Part shown: piece by piece, positions 3,502 through 19,774 of the stretch
Numbering within the stretch: position 1 is the first letter of the stretch
Layout of the letters: every line of letters begins with the position of its first letter
DNA from: Acidimicrobiaceae bacterium
GTDB lineage: Bacteria > Actinomycetota > Acidimicrobiia > Acidimicrobiales > UBA8190
Length of the DNA stretch: 24,221 bases
Assembly: GCA_003151955.1 (NCBI GenBank)
Contig: PLZB01000060.1
Coordinates: 1-24,221 of the forward strand
Reading direction: 5' to 3'
Made by a program: the position numbers and the translations under genes
Notes under the pieces: generated by a model
What the model was told of the DNA's origin: nothing
The model's input: only the letters and a program-made list of their open reading frames with translations
The model's database searches: none

Positions 3502-3968
3502 GCCGAGGACCTGGAACGTTTCCGCGGAAAGACTTCGGCGTTGGCGCCGGACGTTGCAGTGACCAACGACCGCTACGGTGGTGGAGGTGGCGGACAGAAC
3601 GGGCGGACCGGGTGAGCCGATTGGTGACGACGAAGTCCTCACTCAATACGGCTACGACGACGGCTCAGCTCCGGCGTTCAGGTCGGCGCCCCGAGAGAGT
3701 GACACCGACGGGGTGTCGATGATCCGAGGCGCTCTGGTCGCGACCGAAGCCGCCCGGATGGTTCGAAACGGCAGGACCTCCCCCGATCCAACATTCGACC
3801 GCGTCAGGTTGACCAGGGCCGGAACCCTCCGGAAAGCCGGATTCGAGGTGACCCACACGCCGTCCAAGCGCCTTCCCGGCCATGTGAGCGTCAGCCGGTC
3901 CCAAACCTGGGACGGAGACGTGACCGAGGCCTTTCACCTATGCTTTGGCCGTGTCGAAGGAGGTCAAG

Positions 3969-4430
3969 ATGTCTGATCAGATCCTCCTGGTCCGAGGGAT
4001 GCTCCCGTGGACGCCTTCTCCGGGTGCGGAGCTCCTGAAGGTGTACCACCGGTATGACCAGCCGCTCCAGGGCATCCTCGACCAGGATGGGGCTCTCTAC
4101 CTGTTCGAATGCGTCGCGGGCGAGGTGGGGCCCTGGAGCGTCTGGATCTACAGCTATGTCCAGGCATCCGAGGTTGCCGCCCTCGATGAAGCTGAGGGGG
4201 AAGAATTCGAGGCGCTCGTGGCACATAGCCGGGCCGAGCGGCCCTGCAAGCTCGCACTCTCCATGGAAAATGCGGGAATTGTCGTCGTGGCGAACGTCTT
4301 GGACATGCGGGGCGGGTTGAAAGCTGGCTTCGAGGAACTGGTTGCGCTTTTCAACGAGCATCTCGAAGATCTCCGCCGCGCCAGCGTCGAGATCGAACAC
4401 GCCGACTGGACAAAGCTGGCTGCCAGCTGA
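3969..4430 (+). CDS. Hypothetical acidic protein of 153 aa. It is an orphan gene with no recognisable family, sitting in a lower-GC patch.
   Basis: A strong RBS GAAGGAGG (3956-3963) lies 5 nt before ATG 3969. GC at third codon positions is high in this frame. The product reads as globular (MSDQILLVRGMLPWTPSPGAELLKVYHRYDQPL...). Confidence 0.55.
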   Translation: MSDQILLVRGMLPWTPSPGAELLKVYHRYDQPLQGILDQDGALYLFECVAGEVGPWSVWIYSYVQASEVAALDEAEGEEFEALVAHSRAERPCKLALSMENAGIVVVANVLDMRGGLKAGFEELVALFNEHLEDLRRASVEIEHADWTKLAAS

Positions 4431-4439
4431 TCCCGCGGA

Positions 4440-4776
4440 GTCGCTCGGTCAGGGCGTCCCGACCCTCGGCCGCAGAGGTGCAGAGGCCAACGGGGCCGCT
4501 CGCACGGGGACGCATCCGCGAGCTTCGAAGACCGGAGGTCTGGCGCACCCTCCATGCTGTCCCAGATCTCGCGGGGGGCCAGACCGGTCAGTCCAAACGC
4601 CTGGACCCGCTCCACTACGGTCGACGTCATGGAGAACGTTCCGCTCACATCCTCAGGAGTCCCGAAGGCGTGCACCTCGGGGTCGAGGGCCTCGGGACGA
4701 GAGGCGATGTGGGCTGCGTTTTGTCGATCCAGGGCTGGTAGCTCTTGAGGTCGGGGTAGAACTCGTAGATCCTCAT
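4440..4776 (-). pseudogene. Possible frameshifted gene remnant downstream of the dioxygenase gene.
   Basis: An ATG at 4776-4774 (3 nt after the dioxygenase stop) opens MRIYEFYPDLKSYQPWIDKTQPTSPLVPRPS..., which terminates after about 43 codons. A second minus-strand frame continues in protein-like fashion (HAFGTPEDVSGTFSMTSTVVERVQAFGLTGLAPREIWDSMEGAPDL). No intact long ORF remains. Confidence 0.2.
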
Positions 4777-6158: not shown

Positions 6159-6683
6159 TTGAACGCGACGGCGGCATCGCTCCTCGGGGTCCTCCGGCGC
6201 CACGGGGAGCTCACCGGGGCCGGGCTGGTCCGGGCCACGCTCCTCGAGATCGGGGAGTTCTTCCCCCTGGCCCGGAGCCAGGCCTACCGGGAGCTGACCG
6301 ACCTGGCCGACCACGACCTGGTGGAGGCCGGCCCCCCCGGCCCCCGGTCCTCCCGCCCCCACCGGGTCACCCGGGCCGGCGAGGTGGCGTTCCTGGAGTG
6401 GCTGGCCCAGACCCCGGGGGAGGACTCCGTCCGGTTCCCCCTCCTCCTCACCATCTCCTTCGGGTCCGACCTCCCCCCGGCCCGGCTGGCCGAGCTCGTC
6501 GACGCCCATGAGGCCCGCCACCGGGAGAAGCTGGCCCGGTACCGGGCCCTCCTTCCCCAGGTGGAGGAGCACGCCGACGCCTTCGTGGCCGCCACCCTCC
6601 ATCTCGGGATCCGCTACCAGGAGGCCACCCTGGCCTGGTTCTCCGAGCTCCCCCCCGAGGTCCGGGGACGGATCAGCCGTTGA
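6159..6683 (+). CDS. PadR-family transcriptional regulator.
   Basis: A winged-helix N-terminus (LLGVLRRHGELTGAGLVRATLLEIGEFFPLARSQAYRELTDLADHDLVE) is followed by a C-terminal helical dimerisation region. The start is ambiguous between GTG 6141 and TTG 6159. I chose 6159 so that the palindrome stays outside the coding sequence. Confidence 0.65.
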   Translation: MNATAASLLGVLRRHGELTGAGLVRATLLEIGEFFPLARSQAYRELTDLADHDLVEAGPPGPRSSRPHRVTRAGEVAFLEWLAQTPGEDSVRFPLLLTISFGSDLPPARLAELVDAHEARHREKLARYRALLPQVEEHADAFVAATLHLGIRYQEATLAWFSELPPEVRGRISR

Positions 6684-7248
6684 ACTGGTGGAGGACGGGG
6701 CCGTCGTGGCCCCAGCCGATCCTCGTCACCGAGGCGGTCGAGAGGTGGAGCCGCCAGGCCAGCTCGTCGCCGAGGCCGAGGGCCCAGGCCACGGCGGCCT
6801 TGATGGGCGAGACGTGGCTCACGACCACCACGTCGGTGCCGGCCCGGGCCCCGGCGCCGTCCTCGGCGAAGAGCTCCCGGCAGGCGCCCCGGACCCGCTC
6901 CCCCATCTCGAGGAGGGTCTCCCCCCCGGGGGGCCGGAAGCCGGGATCGGCCCGCCAGGCCTTCCAGAGATCGGCGGGGACGTCGGCGAGCCTCGTCCCG
7001 TCGAGCTCCCCGTAGTCGACCTCGAGCCAACGGTCGTCGAACTCCAGGGGAAGGTCACCGGCCAGGGCCAGGGCCGTCGCCCGGGCCCGACCCAGGGGGC
7101 TCGAGACGACCCGGCCCAGGCTCGGGAACCGGCCGGCCAGGGCGGCGGCCTGGGCCGATCCCGAATCCGTCAGGGGGGACTCCATCCGGCCCAGTAGGAG
7201 CCCGGCCCGGTTCCCAGCCGACTCCCCATGGCGGACGAGGATGAGCAC
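6673..7248 (-). CDS. Histidine phosphatase family protein (phosphoglycerate-mutase-like; CobC / alpha-ribazole-phosphatase-like).
   Basis: The N-terminal LVRHGES motif (catalytic RHG) and the internal His (VSHVSPI) are present. GTG start at 7248, 4 nt after the stop of the preceding gene. The 3' end overlaps PadR by 11 bp (convergent). Confidence 0.8.
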   Translation of the reverse strand: MLILVRHGESAGNRAGLLLGRMESPLTDSGSAQAAALAGRFPSLGRVVSSPLGRARATALALAGDLPLEFDDRWLEVDYGELDGTRLADVPADLWKAWRADPGFRPPGGETLLEMGERVRGACRELFAEDGAGARAGTDVVVVSHVSPIKAAVAWALGLGDELAWRLHLSTASVTRIGWGHDGPVLHQFNG

Positions 7249-7252
7249 GTTC

Positions 7253-7966
7253 CTAGCGGACCAGGATCCGGCCGCACTGGTCGCAGGTCATGACGGCGTC
7301 GGGGGGGGCCTTCCTGATCCGGTCGACCTCCATGGCCGGCAGGACGAGGTGGCAGCCCCCACAGGATCCCCCCACCAGCCGGGCCGCCCCCGTCCCTCCC
7401 AGCCGGGTCCGGAGTGTCTCGTAGCGGGCCAGGAGCTCGGCCGGGACCGACCCGGCCAGGGCGGCCCGCTCCCCGAGGAGCCGGTCCAGGTCGCCCTGGA
7501 GGTCCCCCTCGGCCACGGTGATGGCGGCCCGGAGGGTGCCGGCCTCCTCCTCCAGGGTCGCCGTCTCCGCCGCGGCGACCGTCAGCCGGTCGTCGAGGGG
7601 CTCGAGCTCCTCCATGATCTCGAGCTCCCGGTCCTCGAGCTCCCGCACGTGCTGGCCGAGGTGCCGGACCTCCTCGTCCATGGCCTGGAGCTCCCGGGCC
7701 GCGGTGACCTGGCCCCCGAACATCCGCTTCTCGATCTCCGCCTTCCGGCTCCGGGCCGTCCCGATCTGGTGCTCGAGGGCCTCCTGGCGGGCGCCGAGCT
7801 CGTCCCGCTCCTTCTGGACCGTCGCCATCCGGCTCGAGAGCCCGCTCACCGCGGCCCGGTTGGCAGTCAGGGCGACCCGCTCCGGGAGGCTGGCCAGCCG
7901 GTGCCGGACCTGGTCGACGGCGGTGTCGTGGTCCTGCAGGTCGAGCAGGCTCGTGAATTGGGTCAT
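7253..7966 (-). CDS. COG1579-type coiled-coil protein with a C-terminal C4 zinc ribbon (the family of mycobacterial Rv2229c).
   Basis: A long heptad-rich coiled coil (ELEDRELEIMEELEPLDDRL...) is followed by CGGCHLVLP...MTCDQCGRILV. The ATG start overlaps the NUDIX stop (ATGA at 7963-7966). Confidence 0.75.
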   Translation of the reverse strand: MTQFTSLLDLQDHDTAVDQVRHRLASLPERVALTANRAAVSGLSSRMATVQKERDELGARQEALEHQIGTARSRKAEIEKRMFGGQVTAARELQAMDEEVRHLGQHVRELEDRELEIMEELEPLDDRLTVAAAETATLEEEAGTLRAAITVAEGDLQGDLDRLLGERAALAGSVPAELLARYETLRTRLGGTGAARLVGGSCGGCHLVLPAMEVDRIRKAPPDAVMTCDQCGRILVR

Positions 7967-12784: not shown

Positions 12785-12985
12785 TTTTCAATGATCGGCG
12801 GACGGCCGGCCCCCCCTGAGCCCTCCCCGCTCTTTTCCTTCACAATGGACTCACAACACTACCCTCCACCAGCAATTTCTCGACGCACCGTGGGCGCTCT
12901 CAACACTCCTAGTGGTAGGGCCAAACGCGCCGCGACCCCGAGGAGCGGCGGGAACCTCGAGGTCGCGGCGATCTTGTTGGGTGGA

Positions 12986-14143
12986 TCAGGTGGTGATGCC
13001 CCCGCCCCCACCCTCGGAGCCGTCCCGGCCCCGAAGACCGGCCGGACCGTTGGGGCCCCCGCCGCCGGGTCCACCGAAGGCCCCGGTCGAGCCGGCGGGG
13101 ATGGCGATGATCGAGGTGGCCGTGACGGTCCCGTCTGCCGCCTTGCTGCCCATGACGATGATCCGGTCACCAACGGCAAGGCTGCTGAGGCTTCCCGTTC
13201 CCGAGGGGCTCCGGTAGGTGGTCGACGAGGTGGTGTCCACCGTCGTCGTCCCCCCTCCCGGTGTCGTCACGGTGATCGTCCCCCCGCTGACCGAAGCCAC
13301 CGTTCCCGTCGTCCCCGGCATCCCGGTCATGCCTCCCGGCATGCCCCCGAACCCCCGGTGTCCACCATGGCCGCCGCCGGCGGTCGGACCGCTGGGGCCG
13401 ACGGTGACCGAGGTGGCGTCGAGCTCGGTGTGGTCGGCGTCCACCGTGCCGGTGGCGACGACCCGGGCCCCGACGGTCACTACCGAGGCCGTGGCGGCCG
13501 CTCCCCCCTGGGAGTAGGTGGTCGACGGCGAGGTCTTCACCGTCCGGTAGAGACCCTGGACGTCGGAGAGGGTGATGGCTCCGCCCGTCACCGAGACCAC
13601 CGTCCCCTCGACCCGGGGGGAGACGATGTCGAGCTCGGCCGCCACCGGGGACACCGCCGCCGCCGTGGTCGTCGTCGAGGAGGACGGGCTGTGGGCGGGT
13701 CGGACGACCCGGATGTCGACGAGCTCGCCGACGGCCAGCGCGGACCGGTCCACGGTGGTCCCGTCCCGCTTGTAGATCGTGGCGCCGTCGGTGGACACCG
13801 TCCGGCTCGAGCCCCCCGGTCCGGAGACCGTCACCGTGGTGGCCCCGACCGCGGTCACGGTGGCCTCCCCAGCCGGGCCCCGCCCCCCGCCCGGCAACCC
13901 GGGAAGCCCGTGGGGGAGACCGCCGGGTGCGGTCGACGTGGTCGTCGACGAAGTGCCCCCGGCGGCGGCGGCGACGCCGTAGCCACCGAGTCCCAGCATC
14001 GCCGTCAGGCCCCCGGCGGCGACGGCCCAGCGGATCCCCCGGCCCCGGGTCGGCCCTTCCGGCGCCGGGGCGGGGATCGGATCGATCCAGCTGGCCACGA
14101 CAGGATCCTGGGCAGCTCCGGGCTCGGACTCAGCTGGGCTCAT
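12986..14143 (-). CDS. Membrane-anchored protein (cytoplasmic N-terminus, one TM) with three DUF5666-like beta-repeat domains separated by Gly/Ser/Thr-rich linkers.
   Basis: The TM segment is IRWAVAAGGLTAMLGLGGYGVAAAA. Three ~60-aa repeats follow the pattern GTV..V.G.TITV....G...TV.....T.Y........L..L.VGD.V. The gene lies immediately downstream of the two-component system on the same strand. Confidence 0.65.
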   Translation of the reverse strand: MSPAESEPGAAQDPVVASWIDPIPAPAPEGPTRGRGIRWAVAAGGLTAMLGLGGYGVAAAAGGTSSTTTSTAPGGLPHGLPGLPGGGRGPAGEATVTAVGATTVTVSGPGGSSRTVSTDGATIYKRDGTTVDRSALAVGELVDIRVVRPAHSPSSSTTTTAAAVSPVAAELDIVSPRVEGTVVSVTGGAITLSDVQGLYRTVKTSPSTTYSQGGAAATASVVTVGARVVATGTVDADHTELDATSVTVGPSGPTAGGGHGGHRGFGGMPGGMTGMPGTTGTVASVSGGTITVTTPGGGTTTVDTTSSTTYRSPSGTGSLSSLAVGDRIIVMGSKAADGTVTATSIIAIPAGSTGAFGGPGGGGPNGPAGLRGRDGSEGGGGGITT

Positions 14144-14244
14144 CCACGCTCCTCGGCTCGGCTAGCAAGATCCGCCACGATCAGTATCGGTCCCGATCCT
14201 TTGCGTCACCCCTGAGCAACCTGGGAATCTGCCGTGAATCCGCC

Positions 14245-15720
14245 TCAGCTCTTGACTTCCGCCTCAGGAGCCCCACCAGCCGCTTCCCGGTCCGGGACCT
14301 CGGCTGGGAGCTGGACCCAGAAGACCGACCCGCCACCCTCCCGGGGCACCATCCCGAGCTGTCCCCCGTGGGCCCGGACGATGGCAGAGGTGATGGCCAG
14401 CCCCAGGCCGGCCCCCCCGCTGGCCCGCTGCCGCGACGGGTCGAACCGGTGGAACGCCTCGAAGATCTTCTCCCGTTCCCCCTCCGCCACCCCCGGGCCC
14501 CGATCGGCCACCTCGAGTCGGGCCTCGGGTCCGGCCGCCCCCAACCAGACCTCGATCGGTGTCCCCTCCGGGGTGTACTTGCCGGCATTCGAGAGGAGGT
14601 TGTCGAGGACCTGGCGGAGACGCTCGGCGTCGCCCCGGACCATGACCCGGGGCGGGGACACGATGGTGACCGACCGCCCGGGGGCGGAGACCCCGAAGGC
14701 GTCGACGGCGGCGGCGGCCACCCCGGCCAGGTCGACGGAGCCCTCCTCCAGGGGACGCTCCCGGTCCAGCCGGGCCAGGAGGAGGAGGTCTTCCACCAGG
14801 TGGCCCATCCGGTCCGCCTCGGCCCTGATGTGGTGCATGGCGAGGGCCAGGTCCTCGGGCCGGTCCCGGGCCCCCCGATCGAACATCTCGGCGTAGCCCC
14901 GGATCGATGTCAGCGGGGTCCTGAGCTCGTGGGAGGCGTCGGCAAGGAACCGCCGGAGCCGTTCCTCCGAGGCCGCCCGGGCCGCGAAGGCCACCTCGAT
15001 CTCCCCCAGCATCGAGTTGAGGGCCAGCCCGAGCCGGCCCACCTCGCTTCCCTCCTCCCGGACCTCGACCCGCTGGGAGAGGTCCCCGGCCGCGATCGCC
15101 CCCGCCGTGGTCGCCATCTGGTCCAGGGGCCGCAACCCCCGCCGGACCACCCACCACACCAGGGCCATCAGGCCGAGGAGGACCCCTATCGAGACCAGGA
15201 TCTCGATCCGGAGCAGCCGCCCCAGGGTCTGGTCGACATCGGTCAGGGGAAAGGCGACGATCAGGGTTCCGGCCACCTCCCCGCTGCCATTGTTGTAGAC
15301 CGGCTCGGCCCGGACCCGGTAGGTGACCGGCGACGGCCCGGCACTCTCCGCAACGAAGAGGACGGCCGACACCCCCGGGCCACCCGAGCCGGGCAGATCG
15401 GCGGGGAGGACCGGCGGGGAGAGATTCCCCCCGAAGGGGTCAGGCCCCACCAGGGCCGCCCCCGTCGTGTCCCGCAGCTCCCCGACCGTCCCGATCGGGA
15501 TGAGCGAGGCGTCACCGCTCGACCGGAAACCCCCCGAGGGTCCCACCACCGGGTCCCGGACGAGGTGCTGGAGGACGACCTGGTCCGAGCCGGCCAGCTG
15601 GCTGTCGATCCGGCTCAGGAGGAAGGAGTGGAGGGAGGTGTAGGTGACAACCCCCGACGCCCCCAGCCCGACCGCCACGATCCCGACCAGGAGGGCCAGG
15701 AGCCGGATCCGGAGCGTCAC
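14245..15720 (-). CDS. Sensor histidine kinase with TM1, a ~150-aa extracytoplasmic sensor domain, TM2, and HAMP, HisKA and HATPase_c domains.
   Basis: The H-box reads FLADASHELRTPLTSIRGYAEM. The N-box/G-boxes read LLSNAGKYTP, ADRGPGV and GGAGLGLAI. GTG start at 15720, 8 bp after the response-regulator stop. The listed 745-aa ORF merges this frame with antisense of the response-regulator gene. Confidence 0.85.
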   Translation of the reverse strand: MTLRIRLLALLVGIVAVGLGASGVVTYTSLHSFLLSRIDSQLAGSDQVVLQHLVRDPVVGPSGGFRSSGDASLIPIGTVGELRDTTGAALVGPDPFGGNLSPPVLPADLPGSGGPGVSAVLFVAESAGPSPVTYRVRAEPVYNNGSGEVAGTLIVAFPLTDVDQTLGRLLRIEILVSIGVLLGLMALVWWVVRRGLRPLDQMATTAGAIAAGDLSQRVEVREEGSEVGRLGLALNSMLGEIEVAFAARAASEERLRRFLADASHELRTPLTSIRGYAEMFDRGARDRPEDLALAMHHIRAEADRMGHLVEDLLLLARLDRERPLEEGSVDLAGVAAAAVDAFGVSAPGRSVTIVSPPRVMVRGDAERLRQVLDNLLSNAGKYTPEGTPIEVWLGAAGPEARLEVADRGPGVAEGEREKIFEAFHRFDPSRQRASGGAGLGLAITSAIVRAHGGQLGMVPREGGGSVFWVQLPAEVPDREAAGGAPEAEVKS

Positions 15721-15728
15721 CGCCCCGC

Positions 15729-16463
15729 CTACTCCCCGGGACCCGTCGAACCGGCCTCCGACGGCGGCCGCAGGCTGTAGCCCACCCCCCGGACCGTCTG
15801 GATGAGCCGGGGCCCGAGGGAGTCGACCTTCCGCCGGAGGTAGCTGATGTAGATCTCGACCACGTTGGCGTTCCCGTCGAAGTCGTAATTCCAGACCCGG
15901 TCGAGGATCTGGGCCTTGGAGACGACCCGCCCAGCGTTGAGCAGCAGGTAGTGGAGGAGCTTGAACTCGGTCGGCGTCAGCTCGACGACGACCGGACCCC
16001 GCCGGACGACGTGGCTCTCCTCGTCGAGGACCAGGTCGGCCACCTGGAGCCGTCCCGTGTCCCGCTCCCCCGGGTGGGCCCGACGGAGGATGGCCCGGGC
16101 CCGGACGATGAGCTCCTCCACGCTGAAGGGCTTCGTCATGTAGTCGTCGCCCCCCAGGGTGAACCCCCGGAGCTTGTCCTCCAGGGTGTCCCGGGCCGTC
16201 AGGAAGAGGACCGGGAGGCCCTCCACGATCCGGTCCCCCCCCAACCGCCGGAGGACCTCGAACCCGTCGAGGTCGGGCAGCATCACGTCGAGGACGAGGA
16301 GCTGGGGCCGGAATGTCGGGATGGCCTCGAGGGCCTCCCGGCCGGTGTGGGCGACCTGGACCTCCATCCCCTCGTAGCGCAGTGCCATGGCCACCAGGTC
16401 CGTGATGCCCTTTTCGTCGTCCACCACCAGGACCCGCTGTCCGCTGCCCTCTGCCATCGACAT
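15729..16463 (-). CDS. OmpR/PhoB-family response regulator.
   Basis: The receiver domain is VLVVDDE...LLVLDVMLPDLDGFEV...TARD...K. The winged-helix output domain is LTPTEFKLLHYLLLNAGRVVSKAQILDRVWNYDF...VEIYISYLRRKV. Confidence 0.9.
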   Translation of the reverse strand: MSMAEGSGQRVLVVDDEKGITDLVAMALRYEGMEVQVAHTGREALEAIPTFRPQLLVLDVMLPDLDGFEVLRRLGGDRIVEGLPVLFLTARDTLEDKLRGFTLGGDDYMTKPFSVEELIVRARAILRRAHPGERDTGRLQVADLVLDEESHVVRRGPVVVELTPTEFKLLHYLLLNAGRVVSKAQILDRVWNYDFDGNANVVEIYISYLRRKVDSLGPRLIQTVRGVGYSLRPPSEAGSTGPGE

Positions 16464-16480
16464 CGTCTCCGATCATGCCC

Positions 16481-16533
16481 ACCGAACCTGTGGGTCTCCT
16501 TTGACCCTACCCACAGGTTCCTGCCAGGAACGT
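16481..16533. promoter_or_regulatory. Cluster of palindromes in the divergent response-regulator / ABC promoter region: a 12-bp inverted repeat GAACCTGTGGGT-N13-ACCCACAGGTTC (16481-16517), then GTTCCTG-C-CAGGAAC, and the 10-bp palindrome GGAACGTTCC (16524-16533).
   Basis: Read directly. The 115-bp gap between RR start 16463 and permease ATG 16579 is dominated by these symmetric elements. Confidence 0.5.
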
Positions 16534-16578
16534 TCCCTACCATCCCCGGAGCACCGATCCTCGACCGGAGGGGAACCC

Positions 16579-18465
16579 ATGTTCTCGATCGGCTATCTCT
16601 GGAACGAGCTCCGGCGACGCTGGAGTCGGACCCTCGTCACCGCCGTGGGCCTCGCCGCCGGTGTCGGCCTCGTCATGGCCATCATCGGCGTCTCCGCCGG
16701 CCTGACCGACGCCCAGGGCAAGGCCCTCTCCCCCCTCTCCACGGTCGGGACCGACATCATCGTCACCCGGACCGTGGGTGCCACCACCGCCGCGGCTGCC
16801 TCGACCACGACGACGACGACCGCCCCGACCGGCTTCGGTGGGCCCGGTGCCGGGGGCGGTCCCGGCGGAGGCGGCGGCGGCGGCTTCTTCGGTGGAGGGG
16901 CCCGGGGTCTTGGAGGCACGAGCGCCATCAGCTCCCTCAACTCCACCGACCAGGCCACCCTCCTGAACGCCAACTCCTCGATCCTCACCGACCTCTCCAA
17001 GCTCGGCCCGGCCGGGACCGCATTCACCTACGACTTCTTCGTCCCCGGCACCCTCATCACCTTCCCCGACCAGGCCCTCCAGGTCGTCTCGGCCGTGAAG
17101 GGCGTCCAGTCCGCCGTCCCCGGCCTCTCCCTCCAGGCCCTCCACGAGAGCGGCACCGTCCCCGCCATCTCCGCCTCGATCCAGACCGGGGGCCAGACCA
17201 TCACGGCCACCTCGACCCCGGCTCCCCTCACCGCGGCCGAGCGGACCCAGGTCCGGCAGTGCCTCCAGAACAGCGGGGCCTTCCCCAACTCCACCACCAC
17301 GACAACCCCGGCCGGCTCCGGGCCCCCCACCGCCACCCCCGGCGCCTCGGGCAACCCCACCCGGGGCGGCGGCTTCGGCGGCGGTGGCGGGGGCGCTCTG
17401 GACATCGGTGCCCTCGACAGCCGCTTCGGCTCCGCCTTCACCACCTGCCTCCCGGCCCGCTACCAGCAGTACGAGGCCCAGGTCGTCGTTCCCACCCAGA
17501 CCATCACCCAGGTCCTGAACCCGCCCCAGACCGACACCCAGACCAAGAGCTACACCGTGGCCGGCGTGAACCCCTCGAACACCACCACCGGGCTGATCAC
17601 GAAGGCCCAGCTCGTCTCCGGGTCCTGGTTCGGCTCCTCCCCCGCCGACCAGCTCCTCGTCAACACCGCCTACGCCAGCTCGAATTCCATCAAGGTGGGC
17701 CAGACCCTCACCATCGACAGCACCACCTTCACCGTCGTCGGCCTCGTCAACCCCACCCTGACCGGGAACACCTCCGACCTCTACTTCGACCTCGCCACCC
17801 TCCAGAGCCTGGCCAGCAACGCCGGCCGGGTCAACGAGGTCCTCGTCAAGGTCACCGACGCCAGCCAGGTCGACGCCGTGGCCGCTGCCATCCAGAAGGA
17901 GCTCCCCGGGGCCCAGGTCCTCACCTCGAAGAGCCTGGCCAGCCAGGTCACCGGCAGCCTCTCCCAGGCCCATTCCCTGGCCACCAACCTCGGTGGGGCC
18001 CTGGCCGTCATCGTCCTGTTGGCCGCCTTCCTCATCGCCGCCCTCCTGACCCTGGCCAGCGTGGCCAAGCGGGTCCGGGAGATCGGCACCCTCAGGGCCC
18101 TGGGCTGGTCCAAGGGCCGGGTCGTCCGCCAGATCGTGGCGGAGACAGTCGGCATCGGGCTCCTGGGCGGTGTCATCGGGATCGGCCTCGGCGTGGGGAT
18201 CTGCGCCCTCATCACCCACCTGGGCCCGACCCTGACCTCCACCTCGACCGGCACCGCCGTCGGGGCCTCCACGGCCGGGAGCGTCTTCCACCAGGCCACC
18301 ACGGCCGCGGCGAGCACGAGCGTCCGCCTGACCGCTCCCATCAAGCTCTCCACGGTGGGGCTGGGGCTCCTCTTCGGCGGCCTGGGTGGCTTCCTGTCCG
18401 GCGGGGCCGGCGGCTGGCGGGCGGCCCGGCTCCCACCGGCCTCGGCCATGCGGGACCTGGGATGA
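16579..18465 (+). CDS. ABC transporter permease, FtsX/MacB-type. It has one N-terminal TM, a very large (~480-aa) extracytoplasmic domain with Gly-rich inserts, and three C-terminal TMs.
   Basis: A GGAGGGG RBS lies 5 nt before ATG 16579. The C-terminal FtsX core is AVIVLLAAFLIAALLTLASVAKRVREIGTLRALGWSKGRVVRQIVAE...GIGLLGG. The Gly-runs are GFGGPGAGGGPGGGGGGGFFGGGARGLGG and RGGGFGGGGGGALDIG. Confidence 0.8.
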   Translation: MFSIGYLWNELRRRWSRTLVTAVGLAAGVGLVMAIIGVSAGLTDAQGKALSPLSTVGTDIIVTRTVGATTAAAASTTTTTTAPTGFGGPGAGGGPGGGGGGGFFGGGARGLGGTSAISSLNSTDQATLLNANSSILTDLSKLGPAGTAFTYDFFVPGTLITFPDQALQVVSAVKGVQSAVPGLSLQALHESGTVPAISASIQTGGQTITATSTPAPLTAAERTQVRQCLQNSGAFPNSTTTTTPAGSGPPTATPGASGNPTRGGGFGGGGGGALDIGALDSRFGSAFTTCLPARYQQYEAQVVVPTQTITQVLNPPQTDTQTKSYTVAGVNPSNTTTGLITKAQLVSGSWFGSSPADQLLVNTAYASSNSIKVGQTLTIDSTTFTVVGLVNPTLTGNTSDLYFDLATLQSLASNAGRVNEVLVKVTDASQVDAVAAAIQKELPGAQVLTSKSLASQVTGSLSQAHSLATNLGGALAVIVLLAAFLIAALLTLASVAKRVREIGTLRALGWSKGRVVRQIVAETVGIGLLGGVIGIGLGVGICALITHLGPTLTSTSTGTAVGASTAGSVFHQATTAAASTSVRLTAPIKLSTVGLGLLFGGLGGFLSGGAGGWRAARLPPASAMRDLG

Positions 18466-19310
18466 GCCCGGTGGAGAACGATCCGAGTGACCCCGAGAGG
18501 AGCGAGACCATGACCGACGAGGAACTCGAGACCGACAGGGAGCTCGACACCGACGGCGAGCTCCGGGGACCGGAGACGACCGGGACCGGGGCGGCCCAGC
18601 CGCCCGCCACGTTCGACCCGCCCGGGATCCTCTACGAGCTCAGGCAGATCGAGCGTCGCTACCAGCGGGGCAGCACCCCGGTCCTGGCCCTGAAGTCGCT
18701 CGACCTCGACATCCGGGCCGGCGAGTTCCTCTCGATCGAGGGACCGAGCGGCTCGGGCAAGAGCACCCTCCTCCAGCTCCTCGGCGGCCTCGACGTGGCC
18801 ACGGCCGGGACCATCCGGCTCGACGGCCAGGAGCTGGGATCCTGCCGGGACAAGAGCCTGACCGCCATCCGGAGCCAGCAGATCGGCTTCGTCTTCCAGC
18901 AGTTCAACCTGATCCCCACCCTGACCGCCCTCGAGAACGTCGCCATCGCCATGGTCCCCCACCACGTCCGCCGGGCCGACCGGGTGGCCCGGGCCACCGA
19001 GCTCCTCGAAGGTGTCGGCCTGGGCCAGCGCCTCGACCACCTCCCCTCCCGGCTCTCCGGGGGGGAGCAGCAGCGGGTGGCCATCGCCCGGGCCCTGGCC
19101 AACCGGCCCCGGGTCATCATCGCCGACGAGCCCACCGGGAACCTCGACTCCGAGAGCGCCAACGACGTCCTCGGTCTCCTCGAGGAGCTCCAGACCGGCG
19201 ACCAGCCCGTGACGATCATCGTGGCCACCCACGACCCCGAGGTGGCCGGCCGGGCCCGCCGCCGGGTCAGGCTCCGAGACGGCGCCGTCGTCGAGGACGT
19301 GGCGGCCTGA
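18462..19310 (+). CDS. ABC transporter ATP-binding protein (MacB/LolD-like) with an acidic N-terminal extension.
   Basis: Walker A GPSGSGKST, Q-loop, signature LSGGEQQRVAIARAL, Walker B VIIADEPTGNLD, and H-loop ATHD are present. ATG 18462 overlaps the permease stop (ATGA). An alternative start at ATG 18510 has a GAGAGGAG RBS. Either way, at least ~45 D/E/T-rich residues precede the ATPase core. Confidence 0.85.
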   Translation: MSPVENDPSDPERSETMTDEELETDRELDTDGELRGPETTGTGAAQPPATFDPPGILYELRQIERRYQRGSTPVLALKSLDLDIRAGEFLSIEGPSGSGKSTLLQLLGGLDVATAGTIRLDGQELGSCRDKSLTAIRSQQIGFVFQQFNLIPTLTALENVAIAMVPHHVRRADRVARATELLEGVGLGQRLDHLPSRLSGGEQQRVAIARALANRPRVIIADEPTGNLDSESANDVLGLLEELQTGDQPVTIIVATHDPEVAGRARRRVRLRDGAVVEDVAA

Positions 19311-19330
19311 GCCCGAGATCCCACTCGGGC
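19311..19330 (+). terminator. GC-rich hairpin GCCCGAG-atccca-CTCGGGC directly after the ABC ATPase stop.
   Basis: A 7-bp perfect stem with a 6-nt loop, starting 1 nt after the TGA. No U-tract follows. Confidence 0.3.
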
Positions 19331-19336
19331 GAGTTG

Positions 19337-19774
19337 ATGGCCCTCGACCCGGACGTCGTCGAGGTCGCCGGAGCCCTCCGGGTGGGCGTCGGCCTTCTCC
19401 GGCGACGGCTCCGCCAGCTCCAGGCCGACGACGGGCTCACCCTGCCCGAGACCTCGGCCCTGGCCTGGCTCGACCGGGTCGGGCCGTCCACGGCCAGCGG
19501 GCTGGCCCGGCTGGAGCAGATCAGCCCCCAGTCCATGGGGGCCACCCTGGCCGGCCTCGAGGCCCGGGGCCTCGTCGAGCGGCGCCCGGACCCCGGGGAC
19601 GGCCGCCAGTCGGTGCTGACGTTGACCGGGGCCGGTCTCGACGAGCTCCGCAGCAGGCGGGACGCCCTGACCCGGCAGCTGGCCAAGGCCCTCTCGACGT
19701 CGTTCTCCCCGACGGAGCTCCGACAGCTGGCCGCAGCCACCCCGCTGCTCGAGCGCCTGGCCCAGACCATCTGA
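19337..19774 (+). CDS. MarR-family transcriptional regulator.
   Basis: The winged-helix region reads LTLPETSALAWLDRVGPSTASGLARLEQISPQSMGATLAGLEARGLVERRPDPGDGRQSVLTLTGAG. The stop overlaps the MFS start (TGATG at 19772-19776). Confidence 0.85.
   Translation: MALDPDVVEVAGALRVGVGLLRRRLRQLQADDGLTLPETSALAWLDRVGPSTASGLARLEQISPQSMGATLAGLEARGLVERRPDPGDGRQSVLTLTGAGLDELRSRRDALTRQLAKALSTSFSPTELRQLAAATPLLERLAQTI

What the first reader, a model, noticed from the sequence alone, without database searches (positions are those of the whole stretch)
16464..16578. Dense palindrome array in the shared response-regulator / ABC promoter region
Within 53 bp there are three symmetric elements. The first is a perfect 12-bp inverted repeat, GAACCTGTGGGT-N13-ACCCACAGGTTC (16481-16517). 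The second is GTTCCTG-C-CAGGAAC (16514-16528). The third is GGAACGTTCC (16524-16533), the same core that flanks the lower-GC insert at 3514 and 4633. OmpR-family regulators usually bind direct repeats, so these inverted repeats may belong to a second regulator, or the 12-bp inverted repeat may form a cruciform or attenuator hairpin. The sharing of half-sites between elements (GGTTCC / GGAACC) suggests competing binding registers.
Basis: seen in the sequence. Interest (0 to 1): 0.5.

Follow-up and report, generated by a model that had tools for sequence, protein, structure and literature searches.

The report
Back-to-back PhoP-type regulator binding sites
The "palindromes" between a response-regulator gene and an ABC-exporter operon are best read as two oppositely facing pairs of direct-repeat binding sites for the neighbouring PhoP-like regulator, forming an ordinary bidirectional regulator-dependent promoter rather than a hairpin or a second regulator's operator.

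Summary
The three symmetric elements exist, 3 bp to the right of the stated coordinates. The perfect 12-bp inverted repeat is at 16484-16495 / 16509-16520. GTTCCTG-C-CAGGAAC is at 16517-16531 and GGAACGTTCC at 16527-16536.

Thirteen of 15 related permease loci from Acidimicrobiales MAGs share a different conserved unit: yyCACAGs-N3-TTGmCAGs, then 9-10 nt, then a TAnnnT-like hexamer. That is two 8-bp half-sites in direct repeat at 11-bp phase, placed where a -35 element would be.

The window carries this unit on the + strand in front of the ABC permease. A mirror copy on the - strand lies 9 nt from CATGAT and 8 nt from the regulator's ATG. The 12-bp inverted repeat is one half-site unit (ACCCACAGGTTC) from each pair. 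The two short palindromes are not conserved and look like by-products.

The regulator is 56% identical to M. tuberculosis PhoP, which binds TCACAGC-N4-TCACAGC. Among 77 homologous regulator loci, the motif lies upstream of the gene in 27 of 50 with a PhoP-like recognition helix and 1 of 27 without.

Verdict: a new member of a known kind. Binding and transcription start sites are inferred, not shown.

The parts
16464..16578 (.). 115-bp divergent intergenic region between the response-regulator gene and the ABC permease gene
   Evidence: ORF map and Pfam. The public gene call on the source contig gives the same map.
16510..16517 (+). Half-site A1 (CCCACAGG), promoter-distal unit of the ABC-operon box. 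With its flanks (16509-16520) it is the right arm of IR1.
   Evidence: CACAG is invariant in 14/14 aligned promoters. It scores 6.2 bits with a PWM trained without the window.
16521..16528 (+). Half-site A2 (CTGCCAGG), promoter-proximal unit, 11 bp from A1. It is the core of palindrome 2.
   Evidence: Aligns with TTGCCAGG/TTGACAGC in 13 related loci. Scores 7.5 bits, and the pair scores 13.7 bits.
16538..16543 (+). Inferred -10 hexamer TACCAT of the ABC-operon promoter, 9 nt after A2
   Evidence: The same column (offset +28..+33) reads TACCAT/TAGCAT/TATCGT in 10 of the 13 related loci. L005, L007 and L006 have CATCAT/AATGAT one base further on, and L010 has the imperfect TACAAC. The nAnnnT pattern has a 2% background frequency per position.
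16568..16574 (+). Shine-Dalgarno-like GGAGGGG, 4 nt before the permease ATG at 16579
   Evidence: Read from the sequence. A conserved CCGGAGGTG sits at the same place in related loci.
16498..16505 (-). Half-site B1 (GTCAAAGG on the minus strand), promoter-distal unit of the regulator-gene box. It lies in the 'loop' of IR1.
   Evidence: Scores 4.9 bits. The same CCTTTGAG word is paired with CCTGTGAG in L008, L009 and L014.
16487..16494 (-). Half-site B2 (CCCACAGG on the minus strand), promoter-proximal unit, 11 bp from B1. With its flanks (16484-16495) it is the left arm of IR1.
   Evidence: Scores 6.2 bits and the pair scores 11.0 bits. Pairs of 11 bits or more are expected 0.004 times per 115 bp.
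16472..16477 (-). Inferred -10 hexamer CATGAT (minus strand) of the regulator-gene promoter, 9 nt after B2 and 8 nt before the ATG at 16463
   Evidence: The layout of pair, 9 nt, nAnnnT, 6-8 nt, ATG (offset 40-42) recurs in at least 10 homologous regulator loci.
16517..16531 (.). Palindrome 2, GTTCCTG-C-CAGGAAC: the 3' flank of A1, then A2, then the 3' flank of A2
   Evidence: 7/7 pairs here and 1-5/7 in the 13 related promoters.
16527..16536 (.). Palindrome 3, GGAACGTTCC, in the spacer between A2 and the -10 hexamer
   Evidence: 5/5 pairs here and 0-4/5 elsewhere. This type of palindrome occurs 154 times in the window.
15729..16463 (-). PhoP-like OmpR/PhoB-family response regulator (244 aa from the ATG at 16463; the public call uses the ATG at 16457)
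   Evidence: Pfam Response_reg plus Trans_reg_C. The best solved relative is M. tuberculosis PhoP, E = 3e-75, 56% identity.
14245..15720 (-). Cognate histidine kinase (HAMP, HisKA, HATPase_c)
   Evidence: Pfam.
16579..18465 (+). MacB-type FtsX permease, first gene of the divergent ABC operon
   Evidence: Pfam MacB_PCD plus FtsX. 15 relatives in Acidimicrobiales MAGs.
18462..19310 (+). ABC ATPase whose start overlaps the permease stop
   Evidence: Pfam ABC_tran.
14183..14238 (-). Third box cluster upstream of the DUF5666 gene, read on the minus strand: TTCACGGC (14238-14231), TTCCCAGG (14227-14220), weak CTCAGGGG and CGCAAAGG in phase, 9 nt, then GATACT (14188-14183)
   Evidence: The distal pair scores 18.0 bits, the best in the window, and only 2.3% of shuffles reach it.

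Best explanation
The intergenic region is a bidirectional promoter that depends on the response regulator encoded next to it. That regulator is an OmpR/PhoB-family protein of the M. tuberculosis PhoP type.

It most likely binds as tandem (head-to-tail) dimers to pairs of 8-bp half-sites (consensus yTCACAGG). The half-sites are direct repeats with an 11-bp period, that is, a 7-bp core plus a 4-bp spacer.

- One pair (16510-16528, + strand) lies 9 nt upstream of TACCAT. It replaces a -35 element and would activate the MacB-type ABC operon.
- A second pair in the opposite orientation (16505-16487, - strand) lies 9 nt upstream of CATGAT. It would drive a leaderless or nearly leaderless mRNA for the regulator-kinase operon, giving autoregulation.

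The perfect 12-bp inverted repeat is simply the identical unit ACCCACAGGTTC used once in each pair. The two shorter palindromes are by-products of A/T-containing spacers (GTTC, AAC) around the CCTGCCAGG half-site.

Shown: sequence conservation, geometry, and homology of the regulator. Inferred: binding, the transcription start sites, and the direction of regulation.
For: 1. Conserved unit. In 13 of 15 related permease loci (58-76% protein identity) the upstream region holds yyCACAGs-N3-TTGmCAGs at -65 to -98 from the start codon. A TAnnnT-like hexamer follows at a fixed +28. CACAG is invariant in 14/14 sequences, while the flanking DNA is not alignable.
2. Independent scan. A half-site PWM trained without the window finds only three tandem pairs of 11 bits or more in 24 kb on both strands. 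Shuffles give 0.83. All three lie in this gene cluster: 16510-16528(+), 16487-16505(-) and 14220-14238(-).
3. Shared geometry. All three are followed, 9 nt after a phased half-site, by an nAnnnT hexamer, which has a 2% background frequency per position.
4. Identity of the regulator. The best solved relative is M. tuberculosis PhoP, 256 bits against 158 for the next family, at 56% identity. PhoP binds TCACAGC-N4-TCACAGC as a tandem dimer (PMC4832192). Five of its six base-contacting residues and the wing arginine are identical here: N200, V201, E203, Y205, Y208 and R225, with Ser216 replaced by Ile204.
5. Autoregulation in the family. Tandem pairs lie on the gene's strand 24-120 bp upstream of homologous regulator genes. 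In at least 10 loci the layout is pair, 9 nt, -10, 6-8 nt, ATG.
6. Specificity. The pair is present in 27/50 loci with a PhoP-like recognition helix and in 1/27 with other helices (Fisher p = 4.5e-6).
7. Covariation. The residue equivalent to Asn212 tracks the centre of the half-site. With Asn, 21/26 half-sites start CAC. With Gly, Arg or Ser, 7/30 do (p = 4e-5).
8. Other divergent loci. L018, L097, L041, L049 and L052 also have a regulator gene facing an ABC operon. All have two opposed pairs, at variable distances from each other.
9. Mechanistic precedent. Cryo-EM structures of Mtb PhoP activation complexes show tandem dimers on boxes that overlap and replace the -35 element (PMC11825685).
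10. No alternative promoter. No sigma-70-type -35/-10 pair is present in the region.
Against: - No binding, footprint or transcription-start data exist for this uncultured organism.
- The window's half-sites are weaker than the family consensus: 4.9-7.5 bits each, CC instead of TT at positions 1-2, and GTCAAAGG as the weakest.
- CATGAT is 8 nt from the ATG rather than the 6-7 nt seen in the clearest leaderless relatives. A GGAG at 16466-16469 would instead suit the second ATG (16457) chosen by the public gene call.
- In L008, L009, L011, L013, L014 and L015 a reversed upstream pair exists although the upstream gene is co-directional and no -10 follows it. The reversed pair may therefore be an ancestral auxiliary site of the ABC promoter rather than a dedicated promoter for the regulator gene.
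- The 12/12 identity of the two units exceeds what the half-site consensus requires and is not explained.
- Two related loci (L002, L004) lack the motif.
- The loci are phylogenetically related, so the Fisher tests overstate independence.
Confidence: 0.78

Rival explanations
1. The reversed pair (16487-16505) is not a promoter element for the regulator gene. It is an upstream auxiliary binding site of the ABC promoter, as in relatives that have it without a divergent gene. The regulator operon would then be transcribed from another, unrecognised promoter.
For: A reversed pair 37-48 bp upstream of the core box is present in L003, L008, L009, L011, L013 and L014 (5.0-17.4 bits), with a weak one (1.1 bits) in L015, although the upstream gene runs in the same direction. 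By my reading of the sequences, no nAnnnT hexamer follows 9 nt after it in L003, L008, L011 and L014. Mtb PhoP promoters are reported to use a third repeat at variable distance (PMC3413638).
Against: In the window the pair sits 15 bp closer to the core box than in those loci. It also has exactly the pair, 9 nt, nAnnnT, ATG layout seen upstream of many homologous regulator genes. The two roles are not mutually exclusive.
Confidence: 0.12
2. IR1 and/or palindromes 2-3 are the operator of a second, dyad-symmetric regulator. One candidate is the MarR-family protein encoded downstream of the ABC genes at 19334-19774. It would overlap and modulate the regulator-dependent promoters.
For: Palindromes 2 and 3 are symmetric only in this window. 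A MarR-MFS pair after the ABC ATPase was not found in the related loci; only L006 shows a weak MFS match. The 12/12 identity of the IR1 arms exceeds the half-site requirement. A 7-bp-arm palindrome is expected only 0.045 times per 115 bp.
Against: Every arm is accounted for by half-sites and spacers of the conserved box. GGAAC and GGTTC flanks after the AGG of a half-site are common in the family. No similar palindrome lies near the MarR gene, which has a different small inverted repeat directly upstream (GCCCGAG-N6-CTCGGGC, 19311-19330). 5-bp-arm palindromes are at chance level. The 25-bp centre-to-centre arm spacing of IR1 is unusual for a simple dimer (general knowledge).
Confidence: 0.06
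3. IR1 acts as nucleic-acid structure, either an RNA hairpin in a 5' leader (attenuator or stability element) or a DNA cruciform.
For: The 12-bp stem is predicted to form in both strand-specific folds.
Against: The fold z-scores are only -1.9 and -1.7. There is no T-run or terminator pattern and no Rfam match. RNAalifold finds no conserved pair in 8 related upstream regions. Four relatives (L003, L011, L013, L015) carry CTGAGA in place of CTGTGA, which breaks the stem but keeps a half-site variant (TCTCAG) that is common in the family. The arms lie upstream of both inferred transcription starts. A 13-nt loop disfavours cruciform extrusion (general knowledge).
Confidence: 0.03

Closest known systems
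M. tuberculosis PhoP (Rv0757) and its direct-repeat box TCACAGC-N4-TCACAGC (PDB 5ED4; PhoP activation complexes 9JI3-9JI5)
   Same: The regulator is 56% identical, with the same receiver and winged-helix architecture. Five of six base-contacting residues and the wing arginine are identical. The half-site core is TCACAG. The period is 11 bp. The box sits where the -35 element would be. Repeats lie in front of the regulator's own gene, as in Mtb.
   Different: The host is an uncultured Acidimicrobiales bacterium. Ser216 is replaced by Ile. The targets here are a MacB-type ABC exporter and a DUF5666 protein, not Mtb lipid or ESX genes. Two boxes are placed head-to-head 4 bp apart. Orthology with Rv0757 was not established.
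E. coli PhoB pho box, and PHO boxes of Streptomyces PhoP
   Same: Two 7-bp direct repeats with a 4-bp spacer, ending about 10 bp upstream of the -10 hexamer and substituting for the -35 element. Activation is by a tandem dimer (established knowledge; PMC11825685).
   Different: The half-site sequence differs: CTGTCAT in E. coli and GTTCACC in Streptomyces (from memory). There is no link to phosphate genes in this window. NCBIfam PhoB models score below their cut-offs.
TorR tor boxes in the E. coli torR-torCAD divergent region
   Same: A response-regulator gene transcribed divergently from its target operon, with the regulator's decameric repeats in the shared intergenic region serving both target control and autoregulation (from memory, not checked here).
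   Different: TorR represses its own gene through boxes that overlap its promoter. Here the geometry suggests activation in both directions. The sequences are unrelated.

Membership tests
OmpR/PhoB-family response regulator, M. tuberculosis PhoP-like subgroup | N-terminal receiver domain plus C-terminal winged-helix (Trans_reg_C) domain | tested here: met
   Pfam PF00072 (E = 1.2e-25) and PF00486 (E = 8.6e-28).
OmpR/PhoB-family response regulator, M. tuberculosis PhoP-like subgroup | Closer to Mtb PhoP than to other characterised family members | tested here: met
   256 bits (E = 3e-75) to PhoP against 158 bits to PrrA, the next best. 56% identity over 224 residues. Reciprocal-best orthology was not tested.
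OmpR/PhoB-family response regulator, M. tuberculosis PhoP-like subgroup | Recognition-helix residues that read the TCACAGC motif (Asn212, Val213, Glu215, Ser216, Tyr217, Tyr220) and the wing residue Arg237 | tested here: met
   N200, V201, E203, Y205, Y208 and R225 are identical. Ser216 corresponds to Ile204 (alignment; residue list from PMC4832192).
PhoP/PhoB-type direct-repeat box | Two similar 7-8 bp half-sites in the same orientation with a strict 4-bp spacer (11-bp period) | tested here: met
   16510/16521 (+), 16505/16494 (-) and 14238/14227 (-). The same spacing holds in 13 related permease promoters and about 30 regulator-gene promoters.
PhoP/PhoB-type direct-repeat box | The box overlaps or replaces the -35 element, about 10 bp upstream of the -10 hexamer | tested here: inconclusive
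   An nAnnnT hexamer lies 9 nt after the proximal half-site in all three window promoters and in the aligned relatives. No sigma-70 -35/-10 pair was found. No transcription start has been mapped.
PhoP/PhoB-type direct-repeat box | Bound by the phosphorylated cognate regulator | not testable with these tools
   The only support is indirect: the motif co-occurs with a PhoP-like recognition helix (27/50 against 1/27), and helix residue 200 covaries with the half-site centre.
Palindromic operator of a dyad-symmetric repressor | Dyad symmetry conserved in orthologous regulatory regions | tested here: not met
   Palindromes 2 and 3 keep 1-5/7 and 0-4/5 pairs in the 13 relatives. An IR1 equivalent occurs in only 3 loci, with 7-9 bp arms and a 21-nt spacer.
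Attenuator, terminator or structured-leader hairpin | Conserved base pairing with compensatory changes, a T-run or known RNA family, and a location inside a transcript | tested here: not met
   RNAalifold predicts 0 pairs. There is no terminator pattern and no Rfam hit. The stem is broken in L003, L011, L013 and L015. Whether it lies inside a transcript is only inferred.

The most novel reading that the evidence does not exclude
The two tandem boxes sit head-to-head only 4 bp apart and share an identical 12-bp unit. In several relatives a reversed upstream pair persists without any divergent gene. The inverted arrangement itself might therefore be functional. A head-to-head tetramer of a PhoP-type regulator could couple or toggle the two divergent promoters, or bend the DNA as an obligatory upstream element of the ABC promoter. 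Such an architecture is not described for OmpR/PhoB regulators, which are known for same-orientation arrays.
Probability: 0.1. Interest if true: 0.45.

Novelty: new member of a known kind. Interest (0 to 1): 0.25.

Why it matters
The result replaces a puzzling "palindrome array" with a simple, testable reading and gives exact coordinates for the half-sites and -10 elements.

It also assigns a likely recognition motif (yTCACAGG at 11-bp phase) to a widespread family of PhoP-like two-component systems in uncultured Actinomycetota. It gives them a likely local regulon: their own operon, a MacB-type ABC exporter and a DUF5666 secreted protein.

The covariation between the Asn212-equivalent residue and the centre of the half-site is a small natural experiment on how this regulator family reads DNA.

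None of this overturns current understanding.

Tried and rejected
- **Hairpin or attenuator.** RNA folds of both strands give only z = -1.9 and -1.7. The alignment fold gives no pairs. Rfam gives nothing. The terminator scan gives nothing.
- **Sigma-70 promoter scan.** No hit. This is uninformative for activator-dependent actinobacterial promoters.
- **First 19-bp tandem PWM, including the window.** It missed the minus-strand pair because the A1 and A2 columns differ. It was replaced by a half-site PWM trained without the window.
- **Repeated or mobile element.** The arms do not recur in the window; only CCCACAGG recurs, at 7358.
- **The "same core" at 3514 and 4633.** Only AACGTT and GAACGTTC are shared, and no tandem half-site pair lies there.
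- **A box right after the kinase stop codon as a general family feature.** Found in only 3 of 47 loci by an automated check. The stop-codon detection in that check was imperfect.
- **Source-contig look-up by exact regulator protein.** It failed with the ATG at 16463 and succeeded with the ATG at 16457. It returned only the same contig, so no strain-level variation was available.
- **NCBIfam.** No equivalog reached its cut-off for any of the five proteins.
- **MarR hypothesis.** I ran no further search on MarR homologues, so this is argued only from local sequence.

Full report
**1. Observation**

The window has 72% G+C. The interval 16464-16578 is the 115-bp gap between two divergent operons.
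- On the minus strand: an OmpR-family response regulator (15729-16463), a HAMP/HisKA kinase (14245-15720) and a DUF5666 protein (12986-14143).
- On the plus strand: a MacB/FtsX permease (16579-18465) and an ABC ATPase (18462-19310), followed by MarR and MFS genes.

The public gene call on the source contig gives the same map. That contig is ENA ERZ28653421, WOOD18-1 scaffold_14507. The only difference is that it starts the regulator at the second ATG, 16457.

All three symmetric elements are present but shifted by +3 relative to the finding.
- IR1: GAACCTGTGGGT 16484-16495 / ACCCACAGGTTC 16509-16520.
- Palindrome 2: 16517-16531.
- Palindrome 3: 16527-16536.

IR1 is the only perfect inverted repeat of 12 bp or more in the window. 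Shuffles give 0.42 per 24 kb, about 0.002 per 115 bp. Palindrome 2 is mildly unusual, at 0.045 expected per 115 bp. Palindrome 3 is at chance level: 154 palindromes of that type occur in the window.

**2. What is conserved in relatives**

Fifteen loci encoding relatives of the permease (58-76% identity) were found, all in Acidimicrobiales/Actinomycetes MAGs. Most have no regulator gene upstream. In L005 and L007 the regulator and kinase follow the ATPase on the same strand.

In 13 of the 15 loci the DNA upstream of the permease contains one conserved block.
- It reads yyCACAGs-N3-TTGmCAGs, 65-98 bp before the start codon.
- After 9-10 nt comes TACCAT, TAGCAT, TATCGT or CATCAT.
- Then comes a short leader with CCGGAGG.
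- CACAG is invariant in 14/14 sequences, while the surrounding DNA is not alignable.

This is a pair of direct repeats with an 11-bp period. It ends about 10 bp from a -10 hexamer, and no -35 hexamer sits at a usable distance.

In the window the block is CCCACAGG (16510-16517), CTGCCAGG (16521-16528) and TACCAT (16538-16543).

**3. The mirror copy**

I built a half-site weight matrix from the 13 related promoters, leaving the window out. It finds only three tandem pairs of 11 bits or more in the whole window on both strands, against 0.83 in shuffles.
- 16510-16528 (+), 13.7 bits.
- 16487-16505 (-), 11.0 bits, reading GTCAAAGG-AGA-CCCACAGG.
- 14220-14238 (-), 18.0 bits, six bases after the kinase stop codon and upstream of the DUF5666 gene.

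On the minus strand the second pair is followed by 9 nt, then CATGAT (16477-16472), then 8 nt, then the regulator's ATG at 16463.

The third site has two further weak units in phase, then 9 nt, then GATACT (14188-14183).

An nAnnnT hexamer occurs at only 2% of positions in this DNA. Its presence at the same distance in all three cases is therefore meaningful.

IR1 is thus the 12-bp unit ACCCACAGGTTC used once in each oppositely oriented pair. Its "loop" contains the fourth half-site.

**4. Who binds**

The regulator's closest solved relative by a wide margin is M. tuberculosis PhoP: 256 bits against 158 for PrrA, and 56% identity.

PhoP binds TCACAGC-N4-TCACAGC as a tandem dimer. It has a strict 4-bp spacer and reads the bases through Asn212, Val213, Glu215, Ser216, Tyr217 and Tyr220, with Arg237 of the wing in the minor groove (PMC4832192). 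Here all of these are identical except Ser216, which is Ile204.

Cryo-EM structures show PhoP dimers on boxes that overlap and replace the -35 element (PMC11825685). PhoP also binds repeats in its own promoter (PMC3413638).

**5. Independent test on the regulator family**

Eighty metagenomic loci encoding relatives of the regulator (41-81% identity) were fetched. Tandem pairs lie on the gene's strand 24-120 bp upstream of the gene in about 30 of them.

In at least 10 loci the layout is pair, 9 nt, nAnnnT, 6-8 nt, ATG. That is a leaderless autoregulated promoter. The window, with an offset of 42, fits this layout.

Motif presence tracks the recognition helix. It is found in 27/50 loci with Glu203/Tyr205/Tyr208 and in 1/27 with other helices (p = 4.5e-6).

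The residue equivalent to Asn212 covaries with the centre of the half-site. Asn goes with CACAG (21/26 half-sites). Gly, Arg or Ser goes with CTCAG, CCCAG or CATAG (CAC in 7/30; p = 4e-5). The loci are related to one another, so these p-values are optimistic.

Five other loci (L018, L097, L041, L049, L052) have a regulator gene facing an ABC-type operon. All have two opposed pairs, at differing distances from each other.

**6. Rival readings**

*Structure.* The folds are unremarkable. There is no conserved pairing and no Rfam or terminator signal. Relatives carry stem-breaking changes (CTGAGA) that are nevertheless common half-site variants.

*Second regulator.* Palindromes 2 and 3 are symmetric only here. 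They are built entirely from box half-sites and the A/T-containing spacers typical of the family. The local MarR gene has a different small inverted repeat directly upstream. This reading is unlikely but not excluded.

*Auxiliary site.* In six relatives a reversed pair sits about 38 bp upstream of the core box, with no divergent gene and no -10. The reversed pair may therefore be older than the present gene arrangement and may also, or instead, serve the ABC promoter. This remains unexplained.

**7. Verdict**

This is an ordinary, well-precedented architecture: PhoP/PhoB-type direct-repeat boxes in a bidirectional promoter with autoregulation, in a new lineage and with new target genes.

Binding, transcription starts and the sign of regulation are inferred. 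Which ATG the regulator uses, and how the two head-to-head dimers interact, remain open.

Noticed in passing
window 14183-14238 (minus strand): This is the best-scoring tandem half-site pair in the window (TTCACGGC-AGA-TTCCCAGG, 18 bits). It starts 6 nt after the kinase stop codon. Two weak phased units, 9 nt and GATACT follow it, upstream of the DUF5666 gene. The DUF5666 gene may therefore have its own regulator-dependent promoter with four repeat units.
   Followed up: partly
L008 3018-3040, L009, L011, L013, L014, L015 (about -38 from the core box); L003 (-48): A reversed tandem pair (for example CCTTTGAGgtcCCTGTGAG) lies upstream of the ABC promoter. The upstream gene there is a co-directional membrane-protein gene, and no -10-like hexamer follows the pair. 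Its role is unexplained.
   Followed up: partly
L018-L097, upstream of the regulator genes: Many PhoP-like regulator genes in metagenomic Actinomycetota have the layout box, 9 nt, -10, 6-8 nt, ATG. This implies leaderless, autoregulated mRNAs. The residue equivalent to Mtb PhoP Asn212 covaries with the central bases of the half-site (CACAG against CTCAG, CCCAG or CATAG).
   Followed up: partly
window 12839-12857 (+): A weaker tandem pair, TTCACAAT-GGA-CTCACAAC (10.3 bits), lies in the 200-bp gap between two minus-strand genes. No -10 follows at the usual distance and no plus-strand gene lies downstream. It is probably chance, since 1.26 such hits are expected per window.
   Followed up: no
window 3578-4700: This is a lower-GC stretch (63-67% against 72%). 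It carries an ORF at about 3970-4432 (+) that I did not run against any family library. There is no tRNA or Rfam hit anywhere in the window. The GGAACGTT-like words at 3512 and 4633 share only 6-9 bases with 16527-16536.
   Followed up: partly
window 19311-19330: A small inverted repeat, GCCCGAG-N6-CTCGGGC, fills the 23-bp gap between the ABC ATPase stop and the MarR start. It could be a MarR operator or a small stem-loop. The tight spacing suggests that MarR and MFS may be co-transcribed with the ABC genes.
   Followed up: no
L005 and L007 (regulator at about 6600-7300); L018 603-3243: Gene order around this regulator family is fluid. In L005 and L007 the regulator-kinase pair follows the ABC ATPase on the same strand yet keeps its own box in front. 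In L018 the divergent operon encodes a Gly/Ser/Thr-rich secreted protein, a long Ser/Thr-rich protein that I take to be a membrane-fusion adaptor from reading its sequence (no family search run), and an ABC ATPase, instead of a MacB-type permease.
   Followed up: partly
window 16579-18465 and relatives: The MacB-type permease carries long Thr/Gly-rich low-complexity inserts in its extracytoplasmic domain. These inserts split the tblastn matches in several relatives.
   Followed up: no
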